Notes: generated by a model from the letters alone, not told the origin. Shown: positions 4,910-63,821, numbered from the stretch's first letter. The stretch is DNA of 64,000 nucleotides from a virus (IMGVR_UViG_3300008459_000008:42240-106239), one strand, 5' to 3'. Translations and numbers: made by a program.

Positions 4910-7900
4910 ATGAAAAAGTTTCTGTTCTTTCTAACAAGTTTGATTTTAACGTTGAATTCGTTTGGTCAAGTGAAATTGAACGTTTGGGACAAAAATCCAA
5001 ATGTATCTAAAACAATCAATAATATAAAACCGAATAATTTACCAAAAACATTCGAGTCGTTGACACCGGATGGTGAAAAAACCATCTATGATAGATGGGA
5101 AGTTCCAGCTATAACAGTTGTGTCATCTAAAGGTAAGTCATACACAACAAAACCAGTGGCTTACAAATCAAGAAATGGATTTGGTGTCTTAACCTATTCC
5201 AAAAATGGGTGGCAGGGTTTACATTCTGGTAGGAGTGGTAAATTTTACTCAATGACACCTTCAAAGGTTAATGAGGACACATCGTCATTGAGATCAGTCG
5301 AAGAATATTGTGGAGGTGCAGGTTTACAACCAAGTAGCCAAAATATTGATCAAAAAAAAGACACAAAAAAGACTCCGTCGGTCGGTAGATTAACTAATAG
5401 TGATTTTTATAATCCATTAGTACCAATCAATAAAACTTGTAGTGTTTATGCAGAAATTGCTTTTGATCTACATACTGCGTTGGGTGGAAATCTAGCTACA
5501 ACTGAAGATTGGGTTACGAGACTTTTTCTAGGTATATCACAAATCTATTTGAATGAGGGTATAACAATATACTTGAATAAAGTTTATGTTTGGGAAGCGT
5601 TAGACCCATATGGATATACCACACAAACAGGTACACAGGATGTAGTTAGAAGTAATGTACTCAATCTATTCGGTGGAAAAATTTTAAATAATCTTCCAAC
5701 CAATCCAAATTCAAACTTTAAACATTTACTTACTAATGCTACTTATGGGGGAGTTGCTTACTACGGACCATTCACACCATCAGATGGATACACTCCCGCA
5801 AGCGATTTATTCGGTCCGACCAGTAGAGTAGGTCTATCTAGTATGAGTAACAAACTAGAGATAGCATCAACACCAACAGATTTAAGTGTTTACAACGATA
5901 GAAGATGGTGTTTACTTGTAGTTGCTCATGAGTTAGGTCATAATTTTGGTTCAAGACACACACAGTGGTGTGGTTGGAAAAGTGATGTTGGTACACTAAT
6001 TGGTAGACTAGACTCTTGTACAAATGGTGAAACTTCAAATCCACTAGGACCTAATTGTGGAGCAACTAGCTACCCATCATATAAACCGACCATAATGAGT
6101 TATTGTCAGTTCCATCAGAATGCTCCTGCTTTTTCACAATTTTTATCCAATGGTTTTGGAAAGTATCCTAGATTTAGTATAAGGACTGGATTAGCCAATT
6201 CATCAGACATACCTTATACAAATGCTTCGATACCAACACTTACCACAACCCCAATAGTTACCTATACCGCTACAACTGCTACATCGGGTGGTAACATCAC
6301 AAGTGATGGTGGTGCTAATGTAACCTCGAGAGGGGTGTGTTGGTCAACATCACCAAACCCGACAATATCGGGATCAAGAACTCTTGATGGTTCCTTTTCA
6401 GGGAGTTTTACTAGTAACATCACAGGTCTTTTAGGTGGAATAACTTATTACGTCAGAGCTTATGCAACCAATCAAGCCGGAACTGCTTATGGTAATGAAG
6501 TTAGTTTCACTACATCAGTACCCCTTGTACCAACACTATCGTCAACAACCGCCGCAACATCTATCACCAATAACAGCGCAACATCAGGTGGTAATGTGAG
6601 TGCAAATGGTGGTGGTTCAATTACCGCTAGGGGTGTTTGTTGGTCAACTTCAACAACCCCAACAATATCAAATTCGAGAACTAATGATGCTGTAGGTACA
6701 GGTACAGGCTCTTTCACAAGTAGTTTGACGGGTCTATCAGCTGGTACAACATACTATGTAAGATCTTACGCAACAAACAGTGCAGGAACGGGTTATGGAC
6801 CACAGATAACATTCTCAACATTTTCCGCATCTTCAATACTTATAAACACTACTGCTCTTACGGGATTAGCTCCCAAAAACGTGACGACGGGTGGAACAAT
6901 TACTTCAGACGGAGGTTCTGCAGTGACAGCAAGAGGGGTGTGTTGGTCAACAACAAGCCCACCAACTATATCGAATAGTAAGGTCAATACTGGAACAGGT
7001 ACAGGAACGTATACAAGTACGGTTAGTGGATTATCTCCATCTACGACATATTATTTGAGGTCATTTGCTACAAACTCTAGTGGTACAACATATGGTAATG
7101 AACTCTCCTTTACAACCACATCTGTTCCAACATTCATTAATGGTACTCCTAGTTATGTCTCACAAACATCTATAAAAACCAATTACACTATAAGTTTTCC
7201 AAATCAATCGTTTTCCAGCCATGCTTTGGGTGCTTCAACGACAAACCCACCGGATTCCTATAATCTGAATTCATCATCTTATACTTTTAATTCTGTATCA
7301 GGAACATACCAATCACTTCTCGGTAGAAAATCGACTTCACAAGGTCTTCAACCTTCAACGACATATTTTATTAGACCTATAGCAACAGACATATATGATA
7401 ATTTCTATTACGGACCAATAACACAAGCTACTACGCTTGCTCCTTCTCTACCTGTCTGTACTACGTATGTTGCAACTGAAGTTAGTACCCCGACTACAAA
7501 TGCATCGACCGCTAAATTGAGTGGTAAAGTTACATCAATAGGTGGGGCTATCACAGAAAGAGGTTTTTGTTATTCTACAACACAAAATCCAACCACATCA
7601 AATAGTAAAGTTACTACAACAACTTGTTCATCGGATGATGATTGTTTATTATCATTTACAAACACAGTGGCTAATTTTACTCCTGGTACTACCTACTATG
7701 TAAGATCCTACGCGATAAATCCAAGTGGTGTTGGTTATGGGAATCAAGTATCATTCACAACACCGATTTATGTCTATCAAGGACCACCAATAGTCGTTAT
7801 TGACTCAATCAGAAACATCTCAACTGTTGGTGCTAAACTTTATGGTCGAGTGACAAACAGAGGGGGTTCTGATTGTGTATTGAGTAGTGGATGTAGAGGT

Positions 7901-38143: not shown

Positions 38144-38695
38144 ATGTCGAAATTGGTGAGTTTGATTGGAGCACCTGCTAGTGGTAAGTCAACTTTAGCT
38201 AGTTCGGTTCACACCGAACTTAAAAAAATGGGGAAGAACTCCATATTCATAAGTGAAGTAGCAACAGACTACATTGCAGAATATGGAGTTCCCAATACCC
38301 CGCAAGACCAAATAGTCATATTTTATAAACAATGGAATCGTGAGAAGATGTTCATAGGTTCCAAAGACTACATTATTTGTGATTCTTCTGGTATACTCAA
38401 TTACTTTTATTTCAGGGGTTTATTTGACCATAAGTTATCTAATAAGGATATTGCTATTATAAACCATTTACAAAAAGAAATTCTCAAAACCATTAATCAG
38501 TGGGATTTTCTTTTTTACATACCACCAATTCTTGATAATGTTGAAGATGGTATAAGATATCAAGATAAAAATCAAATATTATCACTTGATAGAAAAATTA
38601 AATCTTATTTAGAGCTTGAAAATATACATCATTACGATTTGAGTGATGTATCATTACAAAAAAGGACTGATTATATAATTGATAGAATAGTTTAG
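38144..38695 (+). CDS. P-loop nucleotide kinase/ATPase (AAA_28, NadR-like)
   Basis: GAPASGKST, E.A..Y, IICDS, EDGIRY. Confidence 0.7.
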   Translation: MSKLVSLIGAPASGKSTLASSVHTELKKMGKNSIFISEVATDYIAEYGVPNTPQDQIVIFYKQWNREKMFIGSKDYIICDSSGILNYFYFRGLFDHKLSNKDIAIINHLQKEILKTINQWDFLFYIPPILDNVEDGIRYQDKNQILSLDRKIKSYLELENIHHYDLSDVSLQKRTDYIIDRIV

Positions 38696-60992: not shown

Positions 60993-61154
60993 TTAATTAC
61001 AATGAAAAAGGTCACCATCGGTGACCTTTTTATCTTTTTTTCGACAATATTTCTTTTTTGAAACAACAACCCTCGTTGTGAAACGAGCATCATTACCCGT
61101 ATCCCTAATCAAAAGGTCTCGTTTTATTTTTTTGAAATTAATTGTCTGTTTCAT
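60993..61154 (-). CDS. ArfA-like alternative ribosome-rescue peptide (53 aa)
   Basis: MKQTINFKKIKRDLLIRDTGNDARFTTRVVVSKKKYCRKKDKKVTDGDLFHCN; D..F..RV...KK.Y.RK.K core; terminator inside the CDS. Confidence 0.6.
   Translation of the reverse strand: MKQTINFKKIKRDLLIRDTGNDARFTTRVVVSKKKYCRKKDKKVTDGDLFHCN
61005..61031 (-). terminator. Intrinsic terminator inside the ArfA-like CDS
   Basis: AAAAAGGTCACC-GAT-GGTGACCTTTTT; the U-tract ends 9 nt before the TAA. Confidence 0.75.
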
Positions 61155-61323
61155 TTTTTGATTTGTTAATTTTCTGCCCCACTTTTTCGAAAGAATCCTC
61201 AAGAATGTAGAGGCACAACATAGTTGTGACCATATCAGTAACACCAAGAAGATAGTACATAAAAGCCCCAATCAGCCATACAAAGTGACCGTAAATTTTA
61301 ATAAAGTTTAGTATATTTTTCAT
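61138..61323 (-). CDS. Small membrane protein
   Basis: Two hydrophobic segments; overlaps the ArfA-like start by 17 nt. Confidence 0.55.
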   Translation of the reverse strand: MKNILNFIKIYGHFVWLIGAFMYYLLGVTDMVTTMLCLYILEDSFEKVGQKINKSKNETDN

Positions 61324-61327
61324 AATA

Positions 61328-61335
61328 CAAATATA
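61328..61335 (-). promoter_or_regulatory. Bacteroidota sigma-A-type -7 element
   Basis: TATATTTG on the minus strand, with TTTG ~20 nt upstream; 4 nt before ATG 61323. Confidence 0.65.
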
Positions 61336-61365
61336 CGACTTTTTTTGATAATGGTTACAAAAAAT

Positions 61366-61839
61366 TTAATATTTCCATTCAATTTTTTGAAGAGACTTAA
61401 ATGGTTTTTTAGTAACTCTTTCTAAAATGGCTATTCCATAACAACCTTTGACTACTCTTTTCTCTTCGTCGAGAACTTGTTTTGTTTCAATCATTAAAAA
61501 GTAATTTTCAGTCCTTTTCATAGGCTGATATCTTAACATATAATCATCCTTTGTTATTAGTTTTTTTGTTAAAACGTGTCTATTTAAAGTGATCAAAGAA
61601 ACTTTCAAGGTATCTCCTAAATCTTTTGATTGAAATAAAAACGCTAATTTGGTTTTGTAACTAACATCGTTTAATTTGACGTAAGTCGTTTGACCAGATT
61701 TTACTTGAAAAACTACTTTGTCATATAAAACATAAGGGATTATATCAATACTATCCAATTTATTAGATAGTAAATCAAAACACTGTGAGTATAAGGTGTT
61801 TGTAATTAAAAATAATGTTAAAAATAAAAAAACCCTCAT
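61366..61839 (-). CDS. Secreted hypothetical protein
   Basis: Signal peptide MRVFLFLTLFLITNTLYS-QC. Confidence 0.65.
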   Translation of the reverse strand: MRVFLFLTLFLITNTLYSQCFDLLSNKLDSIDIIPYVLYDKVVFQVKSGQTTYVKLNDVSYKTKLAFLFQSKDLGDTLKVSLITLNRHVLTKKLITKDDYMLRYQPMKRTENYFLMIETKQVLDEEKRVVKGCYGIAILERVTKKPFKSLQKIEWKY

Positions 61840-61864
61840 AATCTATTTATTAAATTATGAGGGT
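61826..61864 (-). terminator. Terminator after the tRNA; its 3' arm contains the ATG of 61366..61839
   Basis: Minus strand ACCCTCATAAT-TTAATAAATAG-ATTATGAGGGT-TTTTTT. Confidence 0.7.
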
Positions 61865-61878
61865 GGGATTTTGGTGTG

Positions 61879-61984
61879 TGGGCCCTGTTGGATTCGAACC
61901 AACTACCTGCGGTTTATTTCTTCCAAGTGAATAAATACTATTCAAAAATGAGACCGCTGCTCTGACCGATTGAGCTAAGAGCCC
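61879..61984 (-). tRNA. tRNA(CAU), probably Ile2, with a 32-nt insert/intron in the anticodon loop
   Basis: GGGCTCT/AGGGCCC acceptor stem with A73; D-arm AGCTCAATCGGTCAGAGC; anticodon stem GCGGT/ACCGC; CT-CAT then 32 extra nt (61916-61947) then AA; T-arm GTTGG-TTCGAAT-CCAAC; no adjacent encoded CCA. Confidence 0.85.
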
Positions 61985-62020
61985 TTTATTTTGTTATATT
62001 TAAAATTAAATGATTGTTTC

Positions 62021-62059
62021 GAACTTGCGTTTTTAATACATAAAAATAAATGCGAGTTC
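62021..62059 (+). promoter_or_regulatory. Hairpin occluding the translation start region of the GIY-YIG gene, with a late-promoter-like loop
   Basis: GAACTTGCGTTT...AAATGCGAGTTC ends 1 nt before the ATG; the loop contains TAATACATA. Confidence 0.6.
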
Positions 62060-62060
62060 A

Positions 62061-62702
62061 ATGTTTTATACTGTTTACAAAATTACAAACAAAATAAATA
62101 ATAAAATTTATATTGGTGTTCATAAAACAAAGAATTTGGATGATAATTATATGGGATCCGGTAATAAAATTAAATTAGCAATAAAAAAATACGGAGTTGA
62201 AAATTTTGTCAAAGAATATCTCGCAATATTTGATAATCCTGAAGATATGTTTGATATGGAATCCAAAATTGTGAACGAAGAATTTATTTCTAATAAAGAA
62301 ACTTATAATATGACTATTGGTGGAAATGGATCCTGGGATTATGTAAATAATAACTTATCGATGGAAGAAAAAATAAATCACGGCAAGTGGTTGAGTGATA
62401 ATTATGCATCAAAGGGAGGTTCTTGGAAGAATTATGAAAAAAGAATTAAGGTTTGGAGTGTAGTTCCACTCGAGATTAGGCAGGAAAATGCCAGAAAAAT
62501 GGGTTACAAATTTGGTGGACAAAACAAATTCGAAAAAATAGAAATAGACAAAAGATTGGGATTGATTAAGGATATTGATCTGACAGAATTTGGTTGGGTC
62601 AAAAAGGTTGCAGATATTCTTCAAATATCACATACACAAGCCAAAAGATTTATAAAGAAGTATTATAAGGGGGAATATTATCAACGCAAAAGTCCAAGTT
62701 GA
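62061..62702 (+). CDS. Free-standing GIY-YIG homing endonuclease (Seg-like)
   Basis: YTVYKITNKINNKIYIGVH...YMGSG...AIKKYG.ENF...E...YNM..GG; C-terminal HTH-like segment; inserted antisense between two tRNA genes. Confidence 0.85.
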   Translation: MFYTVYKITNKINNKIYIGVHKTKNLDDNYMGSGNKIKLAIKKYGVENFVKEYLAIFDNPEDMFDMESKIVNEEFISNKETYNMTIGGNGSWDYVNNNLSMEEKINHGKWLSDNYASKGGSWKNYEKRIKVWSVVPLEIRQENARKMGYKFGGQNKFEKIEIDKRLGLIKDIDLTEFGWVKKVADILQISHTQAKRFIKKYYKGEYYQRKSPS

Positions 62703-62709
62703 TATTGTG

Positions 62710-62785
62710 TCGGCAAGATGGGGATCGAACCCATATGCACCTATTACCCTTTCGACACTTTATAAGAGTGAGGGGATACTCGCCG
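62710..62785 (-). tRNA. Atypical tRNA-like RNA with UAU anticodon and no canonical D-arm
   Basis: Acceptor CGGCGAG/CTTGCCG with A73; U8-A9; anticodon hairpin CACT-CTTATAA-AGTG; T-arm ATGGG-TTCGATC-CCCAT; only 6 nt in place of the D-arm and a 21-nt 3' connector. Confidence 0.7.
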
Positions 62786-62800
62786 AAGTGATTTGTTATA

Positions 62801-62808
62801 CAAAGATA
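62801..62808 (-). promoter_or_regulatory. Bacteroidota sigma-A-type -7 element driving the tRNA-like gene
   Basis: TATCTTTG on the minus strand, with TTTG ~20 nt upstream; 15 nt before the RNA. Confidence 0.7.
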
Positions 62809-62837
62809 ATACAAAAATGTTTAGTTACAAAGAAAAA

Positions 62838-63587
62838 TTAACTTTTTCTCCTACCAAAACTATCTACACTCCCATCGTGTTTAAAAGAACCATCCATATT
62901 ATACATAGTTCCAAAGTGATAACCCTTATCATCAAATAGATCCCATGATACATCATTTCCAATTTTTCTATATCCATACATTAGAGTTCTGTACTCATTT
63001 GTTTTTTTACCAACTAGCAAAGCCCTTTTGTTTCTGGAATAATCATTAATTTCGTATTTTAGTAAGTCATAGTTATTACTCTCGTTTATAGGACTTGAGT
63101 TAACCCAATCAGTAAAACCATCCCAACCATCTATAAACCAGTTAATACTTTTTAAAAAAATATCATTATCTTTCATTGGATATCTTACCTCAAATGCTTT
63201 CCTTGGAGTATTACCACTTACTGGAACCCCATCAGATTTTATGAAAAAGTAATCATCTTCATACTTTGTTACTGTTACATCAAATCTCATTTCGTTGGGA
63301 TATTCCAATTTCCAATTTACCCTACACATTATATCTTTTGGGTCTAATCTACCAAGTGAGTAAACACTCCTATATTTTAATTCAACACCAGTAAGTTCCG
63401 GTTTAAAATATTTGAGTAATAATCTTTCTATTTTTGGGTAATCACTTTCAGTAAGTGCTGATGGACCAGGATATTTAGCCAAATCATCTAATAGGTTCCA
63501 AGTATCACCTGGATCAAACTCTTGAAATGACTGACCTTCAAGGTAATCTTCAATATGAGATTCGTTAAATCTTTTCAAGTATTTCAT
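62838..63587 (-). CDS. Hypothetical protein with capsid-targeting-like N-terminus
   Basis: MKYLKRFNES plus internal INES; TAATATATAG upstream. Confidence 0.65.
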   Translation of the reverse strand: MKYLKRFNESHIEDYLEGQSFQEFDPGDTWNLLDDLAKYPGPSALTESDYPKIERLLLKYFKPELTGVELKYRSVYSLGRLDPKDIMCRVNWKLEYPNEMRFDVTVTKYEDDYFFIKSDGVPVSGNTPRKAFEVRYPMKDNDIFLKSINWFIDGWDGFTDWVNSSPINESNNYDLLKYEINDYSRNKRALLVGKKTNEYRTLMYGYRKIGNDVSWDLFDDKGYHFGTMYNMDGSFKHDGSVDSFGRRKS

Positions 63588-63599
63588 AGATACTATATA

Positions 63600-63821
63600 T
63601 TAAGTATCTAAAATAGTATCTATTTTCTCATCCCTAACCACAGATTGAGCTAAAACAGCACCATCTTCAAGTAAAGTATTTAAGTATAACCTTGAATCGT
63701 GTTCACCATTTATAAACCACCTTTGACAACCCATAACACCCGTTTCAGTAAGGACTTCATATTCCTTACCTTGAATCAAAGAATGATTATACCTTTTATT
63801 ACTCACACAAACTACTTTCAT
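63600..63821 (-). CDS. Small SH3-like barrel protein
   Basis: MKVVCV...LIQGKEYEV..., ending VRDEKIDTIL. Confidence 0.55.
   Translation of the reverse strand: MKVVCVSNKRYNHSLIQGKEYEVLTETGVMGCQRWFINGEHDSRLYLNTLLEDGAVLAQSVVRDEKIDTILDT

What the first reader, a model, noticed from the sequence alone, without database searches (positions are those of the whole stretch)
60993..62808. Compact translation-resilience island: two unconventional AUA decoders and a rescue factor
Seen within 1.8 kb on one strand: the UAU tRNA-like RNA, the interrupted CAU tRNA (GGGC start and A73 suggest Ile2) and the ArfA-like gene; ATA codons are frequent in this AT-rich phage. Known: bacteria read AUA with one lysidine-modified tRNA, a vulnerable single point. 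Inference: the phage backs up AUA decoding by a TilS-independent route and a processing-dependent route, and clears stalled ribosomes. This could be a coordinated counter to tRNA-cleaving abortive infection.
Basis: inference. Interest (0 to 1): 0.7.

Follow-up and report, generated by a model that had tools for sequence, protein, structure and literature searches.

The report
Phage AUA-tRNA pair split by endonuclease
A freshwater T4-like phage carries two linked isoleucine tRNA genes for the codon AUA, one with a non-cloverleaf "rewired" core and one interrupted by a 32-base insert, with a selfish SegB-type endonuclease gene between them; the supposed ArfA-like ribosome-rescue gene shows no detectable likeness to ArfA.

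Summary

- **UAU element (62710-62785, minus).** This is real. It belongs to a conserved, mostly unannotated phage family of tRNA-Ile/Arg-like genes with no D-arm hairpin. A short helix (11-13:37-39) encloses the anticodon arm instead. My model scores it 87.5 bits; 97% of cells pair and 15-17 of 19 pairs show compensatory change. This scan has found the family before on other DNA, and I found no paper describing it.
- **CAU gene (61879-61984, minus).** This is a true tRNA of the lysidine (Ile2) type with a 32-nt insert after the anticodon. The insert is present in the DNA of two independent studies. It matches neither a group I nor a bulge-helix-bulge intron. Relatives carry the same gene uninterrupted. 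Whether the insert is removed or kills the gene remains open.
- **Linkage.** A UAU tRNA beside an Ile2-type CAU tRNA recurs in relatives. ATA makes up 37% of Ile codons.
- **Overlooked by this finding.** A SegB-family GIY-YIG homing endonuclease gene (62061-62702, plus) lies between the two tRNA genes.
- **"ArfA-like" ORF.** This is a conserved 52-53-aa basic protein with no ArfA signal. Its hairpin is an ordinary bidirectional terminator.
- **Anti-nuclease role.** This is untested speculation.

The parts
62710..62785 (-). Non-canonical ('rewired D-arm') tRNA-Ile(UAU) gene, 76 nt, A73, no encoded CCA. Layout: acceptor 7 bp, U8 A9 U10, helix 11-13:37-39 enclosing the anticodon arm (loop CUUAUAA), GAAA, UAAUAGG linker, T arm.
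   Evidence: Sequence. Family model R1 scores it 87.5 bits, E 4.6e-25. Family covariation. Missed by ARAGORN and by Rfam at E<=10.
62061..62702 (+). SegB-family GIY-YIG homing endonuclease gene, antisense to the tRNA genes.
   Evidence: Pfam GIY-YIG and SegE_GIY-YIG give weak matches. PHROG 314 'homing endonuclease' matches at 1.8e-40. tblastn gives 39.5% identity over 92% to RB18 segB and 57% over the N-terminal half to T6 segB. Homologues sit inside phage tRNA clusters.
62021..62058 (+). Inverted repeat (GAACTTGC ... GCGAGTTC) ending 2 nt before the endonuclease ATG. It may be a translation-masking hairpin of the kind proposed for T4 segB.
   Evidence: Read from the sequence; a perfect 9-bp version is present in relative L009. 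The T4 analogy comes from PMC2330249. The function is inferred.
61879..61984 (-). tRNA-Ile2-type (CAU) gene with an intact acceptor, D and T arms and anticodon stem, interrupted in the anticodon loop.
   Evidence: Rfam scores it 57.9 bits. ARAGORN -i reports (cat)i(36,32). Identity assigned by similarity. Pair 27:43 is G-C here and A-U in relatives.
61916..61947 (-). 32-nt AU-rich insert. An AU repeat at the junctions lets it sit at 34/35, 35/36 or 36/37.
   Evidence: On its own it folds weakly (-2.8 kcal/mol, z -0.35). In the precursor it extends the anticodon stem, with AUUUUU pairing AGAAAU. It is not repeated in the genome or elsewhere in IMG/VR.
61832..61864 (-). Intrinsic terminator 15 nt after the 3' end of the CAU gene; it overlaps the start of the next ORF.
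   Evidence: 14-pair stem followed by a T run.
60993..61154 (-). Conserved 53-aa basic ORF of unknown function (the 'ArfA-like' gene).
   Evidence: ORF. Six related clusters at 72-96% identity, 47-52 aa, with conservative substitutions. No Pfam, PHROG, PDB or PF03889 match.
61005..61031 (.). Bidirectional intrinsic terminator: 12-bp hairpin with T runs on both strands. It lies inside the 3' end of the small ORF, and its U tract ends before the stop codon.
   Evidence: sequence.

Best explanation
The locus is a two-gene AUA-decoding tRNA module of a freshwater T4-like phage. It holds a TilS-independent tRNA-Ile(UAU) and a lysidine-type tRNA-Ile2(CAU), and a SegB-type free-standing homing endonuclease gene sits between them. 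In this allele the UAU gene belongs to a widespread phage family of 'rewired' tRNAs. In that family the D-arm hairpin is replaced by a 3-bp helix whose strands flank the anticodon arm, and a D-loop-like UAAUAGG linker leads to the T arm. Most likely it is a working Ile tRNA. It would be transcribed from the minus strand, trimmed, given its CCA after transcription, charged by IleRS, and would read the abundant ATA codons. The Ile2 gene carries a 32-nt insert after the anticodon. The insert cannot self-splice, so the gene is either disabled (which I think somewhat more likely) or matured by an unknown protein-dependent route. The endonuclease probably cuts tRNA T-arm sequences in endonuclease-free relatives and copies itself and the adjoining tRNA gene across. 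That would explain the alternative alleles found at this exact site. The neighbouring small basic ORF is a real conserved gene of unknown function, not a recognisable ArfA. Shown: the structures, the family membership, the covariation, the Ile2 class by similarity, the allelic variation, and the homology to SegB. Inferred: aminoacylation, decoding, the homing target, and the fate of the insert.
For: Family. 42 of 80 IMG/VR hits to a 15-base motif are 77-nt look-alikes with different acceptor, anticodon and T stems. Across 21 distinct sequences, 97% of cells pair, 15 of 19 pairs change on both sides, 0 of 500 shuffles reach this, and slid controls give 30-53%. With 26 distinct model-found sequences, 17 of 19 pairs change on both sides. 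Pair 11:39 is C-G, A-U or G-C, and pair 12:38 is C-G or U-A. Family members sit 2-10 nt from ordinary tRNAs, on the same strand, in phage tRNA arrays. In the 20 arrays examined no canonical tRNA-Ile(UAU) was called near a UAU-type member, and no canonical tRNA-Ile(GAU) was called in three of the four arrays with a GAU-type member (L257, L266, L315; the fourth, L259, ends 9 nt beyond the element, so its upstream side is unseen). 77 cultured Streptomyces phages carry an unannotated copy; in the one examined, Mildred21, it lies beside a phage tRNA nucleotidyltransferase gene. E. coli translation accepts a D-armless tRNA (PMC11551756). Ile2 class. Relatives. L027 has a canonical UAU tRNA directly followed by an uninterrupted CAU tRNA. 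L009, L025 and L026 have the endonuclease between them. L005 and L024 have the UAU gene collapsed. Alleles. In run X1 a contig with an identical flank (62786-63600) continues into the 5' half of a canonical tRNA-Ile(UAU)-like gene. Endonuclease. T4 SegB recognises GGTTCRANTCC, cuts at the 3' ends of tRNA genes and carries flanking tRNA genes along (PMC2330249). Its association with tRNAs is general (PMC13096335). ATA use. Terminator after the CAU gene.
Against: There is no RNA evidence of any kind for this locus. Nothing has been shown about aminoacylation or decoding for any member examined here. The family alignment was gathered with a fixed motif and with paired acceptor and T stems as entry criteria, so only the anticodon stem and helix 11-13:37-39 count as unbiased covariation; alignment A3 is fitted to the model. 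The window's copy is 1 nt shorter than all the others. Ile2 identity rests on overall similarity, not on tested TilS or IleRS determinants. The endonuclease's target was not determined, and SegB cuts near 3' ends rather than in anticodon loops, so it does not explain the insert. The contig is about 42% complete, so other tRNA genes, an RNA ligase or a splicing enzyme may lie elsewhere in the genome.
Confidence: 0.68

Rival explanations
1. The two tRNAs and an ArfA-like rescue factor form one co-selected 'translation-resilience island' that counters tRNA-cleaving abortive-infection systems.
For: The two AUA decoders are linked in several phages. Phage tRNAs and SegB-driven tRNA amplification can defeat a tRNA-cleaving defence in T6 (PMC13096335). 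The small ORF is conserved and basic, and its terminator U tract ends before the stop codon, so terminated transcripts would lack a stop. This is the regulatory logic known for ArfA (the ArfA part is from my own knowledge).
Against: No ArfA signal appears at E<=10 in Pfam for any of the 7 homologues, in a six-frame PF03889 scan, or in a profile search of PDB chains. The hairpin is an ordinary bidirectional terminator. Two unrelated ORFs separate the small ORF from the tRNAs. Relatives that have the tRNA pair (L009, L027) have different neighbours. No defence or counter-defence evidence exists for this locus.
Confidence: 0.07
2. The 32-nt insert is a genuine mini-intron. It is removed by proteins (an endonuclease plus a ligase such as RtcB or a phage Rnl), yielding a working tRNA-Ile2.
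For: All four arms are intact and a compensatory 27:43 change is kept. The insert is identical in two studies. A terminator follows the gene. Short inserts recur in phage tRNA anticodon loops: L210 has 44 nt and L229 has 35 nt. Lak megaphage tRNAs have 'enigmatic introns' (PMC6784885). Removing the insert restores a perfect CU-CAU-AA loop.
Against: Close relatives carry the gene uninterrupted. Unlike the L210 and L229 inserts, this one has no significant structure of its own (z -0.35). The fold shows no bulge-helix-bulge geometry. No Rnl1, Rnl2, RtcB or PNK-like gene was found in the 106 kb held. No second, diverged copy of the insert exists that would allow a conservation test. A variant contig in run X5 skips 118 nt covering most of this gene, which suggests the gene can be lost.
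Confidence: 0.3
3. The rewired UAU RNA is not a decoder. It would be a tRNA mimic, for example a decoy for tRNA-targeting nucleases, a regulator of IleRS or TilS, or a processing signal.
For: It lacks the D-arm hairpin, which the literature I read describes as universal in bacterial tRNAs (PMC11551756). Rfam's tRNA model scores family members at or below threshold. In this phage population a canonical tRNA-Ile(UAU) allele exists at the same site, so the two forms need not be equivalent.
Against: The 7-nt loop keeps U33, the anticodon, A37 and, in the Ile-type members, A73; the one Arg-type member has G73. The acceptor/T branch is the standard 7/5. Members occupy regular slots in tRNA arrays, and where one is present ARAGORN called no canonical gene with the same anticodon nearby. 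Anticodons are restricted to Ile and Arg and vary sensibly.
Confidence: 0.12
4. Both odd tRNA genes are scars of endonuclease cutting and sloppy repair. This was my own first reading.
For: Degenerate tRNA pieces do lie beside related endonuclease genes: L174:2106, L173:2133-2201, and the collapsed UAU gene in L005/L024.
Against: For the UAU element this is rejected by family membership and covariation. For the CAU gene it remains only as the 'disabled gene' option. SegB-type enzymes cut near the 3' end, not in the anticodon loop.
Confidence: 0.03

Closest known systems
AUA-reading tRNA-Ile: bacterial lysidine tRNA-Ile2(CAU) and the rare TilS-independent tRNA-Ile(UAU) (Mycoplasma mobile, PMC3575796)
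   Same: The anticodons are CAU and UAU. Both genes have A37 and A73 and a 7/5 acceptor/T branch. The CAU gene is 81% identical to a Bacteroidota Ile2-like tRNA and 71% to E. coli ileX.
   Different: The UAU gene has no D-arm hairpin. The CAU gene has 32 extra nucleotides in the anticodon loop. Both are phage-borne and sit side by side.
Rewired / split-D-arm phage tRNA-Ile and tRNA-Arg family. I found it in no paper; this scan has noted it on other genomes, e.g. e1-5952555, e1-5632159, e1-5904520.
   Same: The window's element has every conserved feature of the family and scores in the family range (87.5 bits against 79-101).
   Different: It is one nucleotide shorter in the linker (GGU-GCAU). 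It lies next to a homing endonuclease gene rather than in a long array.
Phage T4 SegB homing endonuclease in the tRNA gene cluster (PMC2330249; PMC13096335)
   Same: It has a GIY-YIG N-terminal domain and full-length similarity to segB of RB18 (39.5% over 92%). It lies between tRNA genes, a hairpin sits at its start, and alleles with and without the gene exist at the same site.
   Different: It is antisense to the tRNA genes. The host is not enterobacterial. Cleavage specificity and homing were not tested.
'Enigmatic' introns of Lak megaphage tRNAs (Devoto et al. 2019, PMC6784885)
   Same: A short, non-self-splicing insert lies in the anticodon loop of a phage tRNA, and alleles of the same tRNA exist with and without it.
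   Different: There is no sequence relation. Here the insert is weakly structured and only one version of it is known.
Azoarcus pre-tRNA-Ile(CAU) group I intron (PMC13168695)
   Same: An insert lies in the anticodon loop of a tRNA-Ile(CAU). The exact match of position is from my memory, not from the paper text I read.
   Different: The Azoarcus intron is a 205-nt ribozyme. This insert is 32 nt with no ribozyme core and no terminal G.
ArfA, alternative ribosome-rescue factor A (Pfam PF03889)
   Same: Both are small basic proteins. In both, a hairpin inside the 3' end of the coding region could yield stop-less transcripts.
   Different: No sequence or profile similarity was found. No function has been tested.
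D-armless mitochondrial tRNAs and the engineered mini HisT (PMC7609411, PMC11551756); allo-tRNAs (PMC5389517)
   Same: These are tRNAs that work without a standard D-arm or cloverleaf.
   Different: Mitochondrial forms shrink, whereas this family keeps 77 nt and a D-loop-like GG linker. Allo-tRNAs have 8/4 or 9/3 branches, a long D-stem and a V-arm; this family has a 7/5 branch and neither of those features.

Membership tests
Canonical tRNA (Rfam RF00005) | Cloverleaf scoring at or above the 29-bit gathering threshold | tested here: met
   The CAU gene scores 57.9 bits, with the insert treated as a loop insertion.
Canonical tRNA (Rfam RF00005) | The same criterion applied to the UAU element, including a D-arm hairpin at positions 10-25 | tested here: not met
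   No match at E<=10 in a 2.2-kb scan. ARAGORN finds nothing. Only 7 nt separate the acceptor stem from the anticodon arm.
Rewired (split D-stem) phage tRNA family | 7-bp acceptor stem, U8 A9, helix 11-13:37-39 around the anticodon arm, GAAA, UAAUAGG linker, 5-bp T stem, about 77 nt | tested here: met
   Model R1 scores it 87.5 bits, E 4.6e-25. Every invariant column is present.
Rewired (split D-stem) phage tRNA family | The family itself is a structured RNA: its helices are supported by covariation | tested here: met
   97% of cells pair, 15-17 of 19 pairs have double changes, 0 of 500 shuffles reach this, and slid controls give 30-54%.
Rewired (split D-stem) phage tRNA family | Acts as a charged, decoding tRNA | not testable with these tools
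   No RNA or biochemical data are available.
tRNA-Ile2 (lysidine type) | CAU anticodon without initiator marks (1:72 mismatch, three G-C pairs in the anticodon stem) | tested here: met
   G1-C72 is paired. The anticodon stem is GCGGU/ACCGC, not GGG/CCC.
tRNA-Ile2 (lysidine type) | Closer to Ile2 than to elongator Met tRNAs | tested here: met
   81% against 68% within one Bacteroidota genome, and 71% to ileX against 58% to metT. In 201 Bacteroidota genomes, 29 of the 30 best-matching loci examined carry the CAU tRNA class that best matches annotated E. coli ileX; the other is a tRNA-Val.
tRNA-Ile2 (lysidine type) | C34 converted to lysidine by TilS, and charging by IleRS | not testable with these tools
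   No tilS-like PP-loop gene was found in the 106 kb held; a host enzyme would be needed.
Group I intron | Ribozyme core of roughly 200 nt or more, with a terminal G | tested here: not met
   The insert is 32 nt. It ends in U or A in all three possible registers. No Rfam intron match was found.
Archaeal/eukaryal spliced tRNA intron | Bulge-helix-bulge at the splice sites and a splicing endonuclease | tested here: not met
   In the predicted fold the two junctions face each other across a 3x2 loop and a 6-bp AU helix. The endonuclease was not searched for specifically, and no ligase was found.
SegB-type GIY-YIG homing endonuclease | GIY-YIG catalytic domain with full-length similarity to SegB | tested here: met
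SegB-type GIY-YIG homing endonuclease | Sits among tRNA genes, with presence/absence alleles | tested here: met
SegB-type GIY-YIG homing endonuclease | Cuts the endonuclease-free allele and homes | not testable with these tools
   This needs enzyme assays or phage crosses.
ArfA (PF03889) | Match to the ArfA profile or to solved ArfA chains | tested here: not met
   No match at E<=10 or at E<=1.
ArfA (PF03889) | Recruits RF2 to stalled, stop-less ribosomes | not testable with these tools

The most novel reading that the evidence does not exclude
This phage secures AUA decoding with two tRNAs built so that host tRNA-targeting enzymes cannot treat them as ordinary tRNAs. One is a non-cloverleaf tRNA-Ile(UAU). 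The other is a tRNA-Ile2 precursor that becomes functional only after protein-dependent removal of a 32-nt insert, which would be a tRNA splicing route unknown in bacteria and their viruses. The module would spread between phages by SegB-type homing.
Probability: 0.1. Interest if true: 0.9.

Novelty: new variant of a known kind. Interest (0 to 1): 0.66.

Why it matters
[quoted passage not shown] A conserved phage tRNA family with a different strand topology would therefore widen what counts as a working tRNA on bacterial ribosomes. The family is present in freshwater, gut and Streptomyces phages and is missed by standard gene finders. It would also mean that phage tRNA inventories and codon-supply analyses are systematically incomplete, notably for Ile and Arg codons. 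This locus shows the rewired form and the canonical form as alternative alleles at one site. It therefore offers a natural pair for testing whether the two forms are equivalent. The interrupted Ile2 gene adds one more case to the unexplained short inserts in phage tRNAs. The locus is also a clear example of a SegB-type endonuclease shaping a tRNA module outside the enterobacterial phages.

Tried and rejected
- **Endonuclease scars.** My first reading was that both odd tRNA genes were endonuclease scars. For the UAU element this was rejected once the family appeared.
- **Close relatives by neighbouring genes.** The 249-aa neighbour has no relatives in IMG/VR. An exact 24-nt 3' part of the UAU element was not found.
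- The three contigs encoding the identical endonuclease (P0001) and the contigs encoding the small-ORF homologues could therefore not be fetched. As a result, linkage of the small ORF to the tRNAs in relatives was not tested.
- **RNA evidence.** No RNA holder was listed by the look-up of sequencing runs.
- **Insert origin.** It is not repeated in the genome. The only two IMG/VR hits to a 19-mer are chance matches inside an ORF. No insert-free allele with this lineage's exact exons was found in IMG/VR.
- **Unresolved variant.** Run X5 has a contig that skips 61853-61970. I could not tell whether this is a deletion or a replacement.
- **Unexplained match.** The inner 42 nt of the UAU element matched another contig in runs X1 and X3, but was not found in 401 Bacteroidota genomes.
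- **RNA repair or splicing genes.** Rnl1, Rnl2, RtcB and TilS-type domains were not found in the 106 kb held. The Rnl1 search had no positive control, and the contig is about 42% complete. A weak P-loop hit turned out to be an AAA_28 kinase, not PNK.
- **Host codon comparison.** The Bacteroidota genomes at hand are 52-54% GC and are unlikely hosts, so the ATA contrast says nothing.
- **E. coli comparison.** BLAST of the uninterrupted relative against E. coli was inconclusive on its own.
- **ARAGORN intron calls.** Most intron calls in other loci are artefacts of class II tRNAs or of adjacent tRNA genes.
Full report
**Setting.** The window is the last 64 kb of a 106,239-bp IMG/VR viral contig. 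The contig is linear and CheckV rates it about 42% complete. It has 32% GC. Public runs that hold the stretch are freshwater and lake metagenomes from many studies. The locus lies 1.2 kb from the end of the contig, so statements about what the phage lacks are weak.

**The CAU gene.**
- Rfam's tRNA model matches 61879-61984 (minus strand) at 57.9 bits, with 36 letters where the model has 4. ARAGORN finds the gene only with introns allowed: anticodon CAU with a 32-nt insert after position 36.
- The insert is 61916-61947. An AU repeat at the junctions lets it sit at 34/35, 35/36 or 36/37, and removing it restores CU-CAU-AA.
- Logan contigs of two runs from different studies span the whole gene with no difference. 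The insert is therefore in the DNA and is not an assembly artefact.
- The insert is far too short for a group I ribozyme and does not end in G. In the predicted fold the two junctions face each other across a small internal loop next to a 6-bp AU helix, which is not a bulge-helix-bulge.
- On its own the insert has no significant structure (z -0.35). By contrast, the strong hairpin inserts I came across in two other phage tRNAs (L210 with 44 nt, L229 with 35 nt) fold well.
- The insert occurs nowhere else in the genome or in IMG/VR.
- A strong intrinsic terminator follows the gene.

**Identity of the CAU gene.**
- The 3' half is shared with CAU tRNAs of many bacterial phyla.
- In 201 Bacteroidota genomes, the best matches of the uninterrupted relative were read in 30 loci. 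In 29 of them they are one class of CAU tRNA; the other is a tRNA-Val. That class best matches the E. coli gene annotated tRNA-Ile between mug and nfeF, which is ileX.
- One Bacteroidota genome has three CAU tRNAs. The spliced window sequence is 81% identical to the Ile2-like one, 68% to the Met-like one and 57% to the initiator-like one. It is 71% identical to ileX and 58% to metT.
Lysidine modification and charging remain untested.

**Relatives and the endonuclease.**
- Exact-match scans found the same tRNA uninterrupted in related contigs.
- L027 has a canonical tRNA-Ile(UAU) followed after 3 nt by the CAU tRNA.
- L009, L025 and L026 have a 67-68% identical homologue of the window's ORF 62061-62702 between the two tRNAs, also antisense to them.
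- L005 and L024 have the UAU gene collapsed to its acceptor halves.
- The window differs from these relatives at pair 27:43 by a compensatory change (G-C against A-U).
- The ORF is a GIY-YIG endonuclease in PHROG 314. It is 39.5% identical over 92% of its length to segB of RB18 and 57% identical over the N-terminal half to T6 segB.
- Its homologues sit inside tRNA clusters in nearly every locus fetched.
- T4 SegB recognises the T-loop motif GGTTCRANTCC, cuts at the 3' ends of tRNA genes and carries neighbouring tRNA genes with it (PMC2330249). The association of SegB with tRNAs is general (PMC13096335).
- In run X1 a contig with a flank identical up to 62786 continues into the 5' half of a canonical tRNA-Ile(UAU)-like gene. 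Alternative alleles therefore exist at exactly this site in the same lake population.

**The UAU element.**
- On the minus strand, 62710-62785 has a 7-bp acceptor stem, U8 A9, a perfect T arm, A73 and a hairpin with the loop CUUAUAA. Only 7 nt lie where the D-arm belongs, and 20 nt lie between the anticodon hairpin and the T arm.
- ARAGORN and Rfam at E<=10 both miss it. Its minimum-energy fold is no better than shuffled sequence.
- I first took it for a scar. A script then looked for a paired acceptor stem plus T arm outside ARAGORN's calls, in loci chosen only for the endonuclease. It turned up the same layout with other anticodons.
- A 15-base motif scan of IMG/VR gave 80 hits, and 42 of them are clear look-alikes of 77 nt.
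- 21 distinct sequences align without gaps except for the window's single missing base.
- For the structure with the acceptor stem, helix 11-13:37-39, the anticodon stem and the T stem, 97% of cells pair and 15 of 19 pairs change on both sides. No shuffle out of 500 reaches this, and slid controls give 30-53%.
- The acceptor and T stems were entry criteria, so they carry bias. The anticodon stem and helix 11-13:37-39 were not. The anticodon stem has three pairs with double changes. Pair 11:39 is C-G, A-U or G-C.
- A covariance model scores the window's copy at 87.5 bits. It also finds further copies that lack the motif, including GAU-type copies with U12-A38.
- Family members lie 2-10 nt from ordinary tRNAs on the same strand. 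In the 20 arrays I examined, no canonical tRNA-Ile(UAU) was called near a UAU-type member. No canonical tRNA-Ile(GAU) was called in three of the four arrays with a GAU-type member (L257, L266, L315). The fourth, L259, is cut 9 nt beyond the element.
- Anticodons seen are UAU, GAU, ACG, UCU and UCG.
- Rfam's tRNA model gives family members 25.6-31 bits or nothing, against 45-73 bits for their neighbours.
- 77 cultured Streptomyces phages carry an unannotated copy. In the one examined, Mildred21, it lies beside a phage tRNA nucleotidyltransferase gene. A ~98-kb gut phage record has an unannotated copy too.
- I found no description in the papers I could search. A 2024 paper states that all known bacterial tRNAs are cloverleaves, and it shows that E. 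coli HisRS, EF-Tu and ribosomes accept a D-armless tRNA (PMC11551756). Allo-tRNAs differ in their branch lengths, D-stem and V-arm.
- After I had reached this point, I found that the scan's own notes describe the same family on many other genomes. They also record short hairpin inserts in phage tRNAs and give a lead to the Lak megaphage 'enigmatic introns', which I checked.

**Linkage and codon use.**
- The rewired UAU gene is adjacent to a CAU tRNA in L274 and L278 (5 nt apart) and in L285 (95 nt apart). The CAU tRNAs of L278 and L285 are Ile2-like, and that of L274 leans that way.
- Together with the canonical pairs in L027 and L009, this makes a UAU tRNA plus an Ile2-type CAU tRNA a recurring module.
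- ATA makes up 29 of every 1000 codons and 37% of Ile codons in the phage.
- The host is unknown, so no contrast between phage and host could be made.

**The 'ArfA-like' gene.**
- ORF 60993-61154 (minus strand) has six related protein clusters of 47-52 aa at 72-96% identity, with conservative substitutions. It is probably a real gene.
- Four searches give no ArfA match: Pfam on each of the seven sequences, a six-frame PF03889 scan of the genome, PHROGs, and a profile search of PDB chains. None matched at E<=10, or at E<=1 for the first Pfam call.
- The hairpin at 61005-61031 scores as an intrinsic terminator on both strands.
- Its U tract does end before the stop codon, so terminated transcripts would lack a stop. 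This resemblance to ArfA regulation is real, but it is also what a terminator overlapping a short ORF would produce.

**Verdict.**
- The locus is best read as an AUA-decoding tRNA pair invaded by a SegB-type homing endonuclease.
- The UAU member is very probably a working tRNA of an undescribed non-cloverleaf class.
- The Ile2 member carries an unexplained insert. My estimate is about 50% disabled, about 30% spliced by an unknown route, and the rest some other role.

Noticed in passing
L173:2831-2884 and L195:1289-1342: Two 54-nt elements have a 7-bp acceptor stem, one D-arm-like hairpin (loop GGTTATAGGTG or similar) and a T arm, but no anticodon arm. They look like mini tRNA-like genes inside phage tRNA clusters.
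   Followed up: no
L210:2422-2541; L229:898-1017: Two phage tRNA genes have strong hairpin inserts in the anticodon loop. One is Asn GUU with a 44-nt insert. The other is a class II tRNA with a 35-nt insert. The cloverleaf is otherwise intact, and the folds are better than shuffled sequence (z -2.0 and -3.5).
   Followed up: partly
L005:about 5690-5733 and L024:about 6737-6780: In a relative without the endonuclease, the tRNA-Ile(UAU) gene is collapsed to GGACAG-ATACA-CTGTCTA (acceptor halves only), directly upstream of the intact CAU tRNA.
   Followed up: partly
L335:694-770 (Streptomyces phage Mildred21, MF155946.1 73703-73779): A rewired GAU-type tRNA-Ile sits in an unannotated gap between a phage tRNA nucleotidyltransferase gene and an FtsK-like gene. 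BLAST finds the same element in 77 Streptomyces phage records; under the 15 hits listed no feature is annotated.
   Followed up: partly
L258:2392-2468 and 2645-2721 (also L273, L277, L303, L305, L318, L324, L330): Contigs of about 97 kb with large tRNA arrays carry two rewired Ile genes about 180 nt apart, one GAU-type and one UAU-type.
   Followed up: partly
L174:1367-1445, 2213-2291, 414-502; L172:1364-1443; L189:417-493; L195:2064-2153; L233:879-954: Arg-type elements (UCG, UCU, ACG) and a longer UAU element share the same split-D-stem layout. They lie in tRNA clusters that also hold SegB-like genes.
   Followed up: partly
window 61853-61970 (run X5): A variant contig is 98% identical over the endonuclease gene and joins 61852 to 61971, skipping most of the CAU tRNA gene. 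I could not tell whether this is a deletion or a replacement.
   Followed up: no
window 62738-62779 (runs X1, X3): Another abundant contig matches only the inner 42 nt of the UAU element, with 3 mismatches, and has different flanks. It is probably a further family member in another phage.
   Followed up: partly
L174:2106 region; L173:2133-2201: tRNA fragments abut related endonuclease genes. One is a lone T arm plus 3' acceptor strand just after the stop codon. The other is a tRNA-Ile(UAU)-like gene whose 5' acceptor strand is replaced by the end of the endonuclease gene.
   Followed up: no
window 38144-38695: A 183-aa P-loop protein of the AAA_28 family (NadR-like kinase type) lies next to a family 2 glycosyltransferase gene. 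It is not a polynucleotide kinase.
   Followed up: partly
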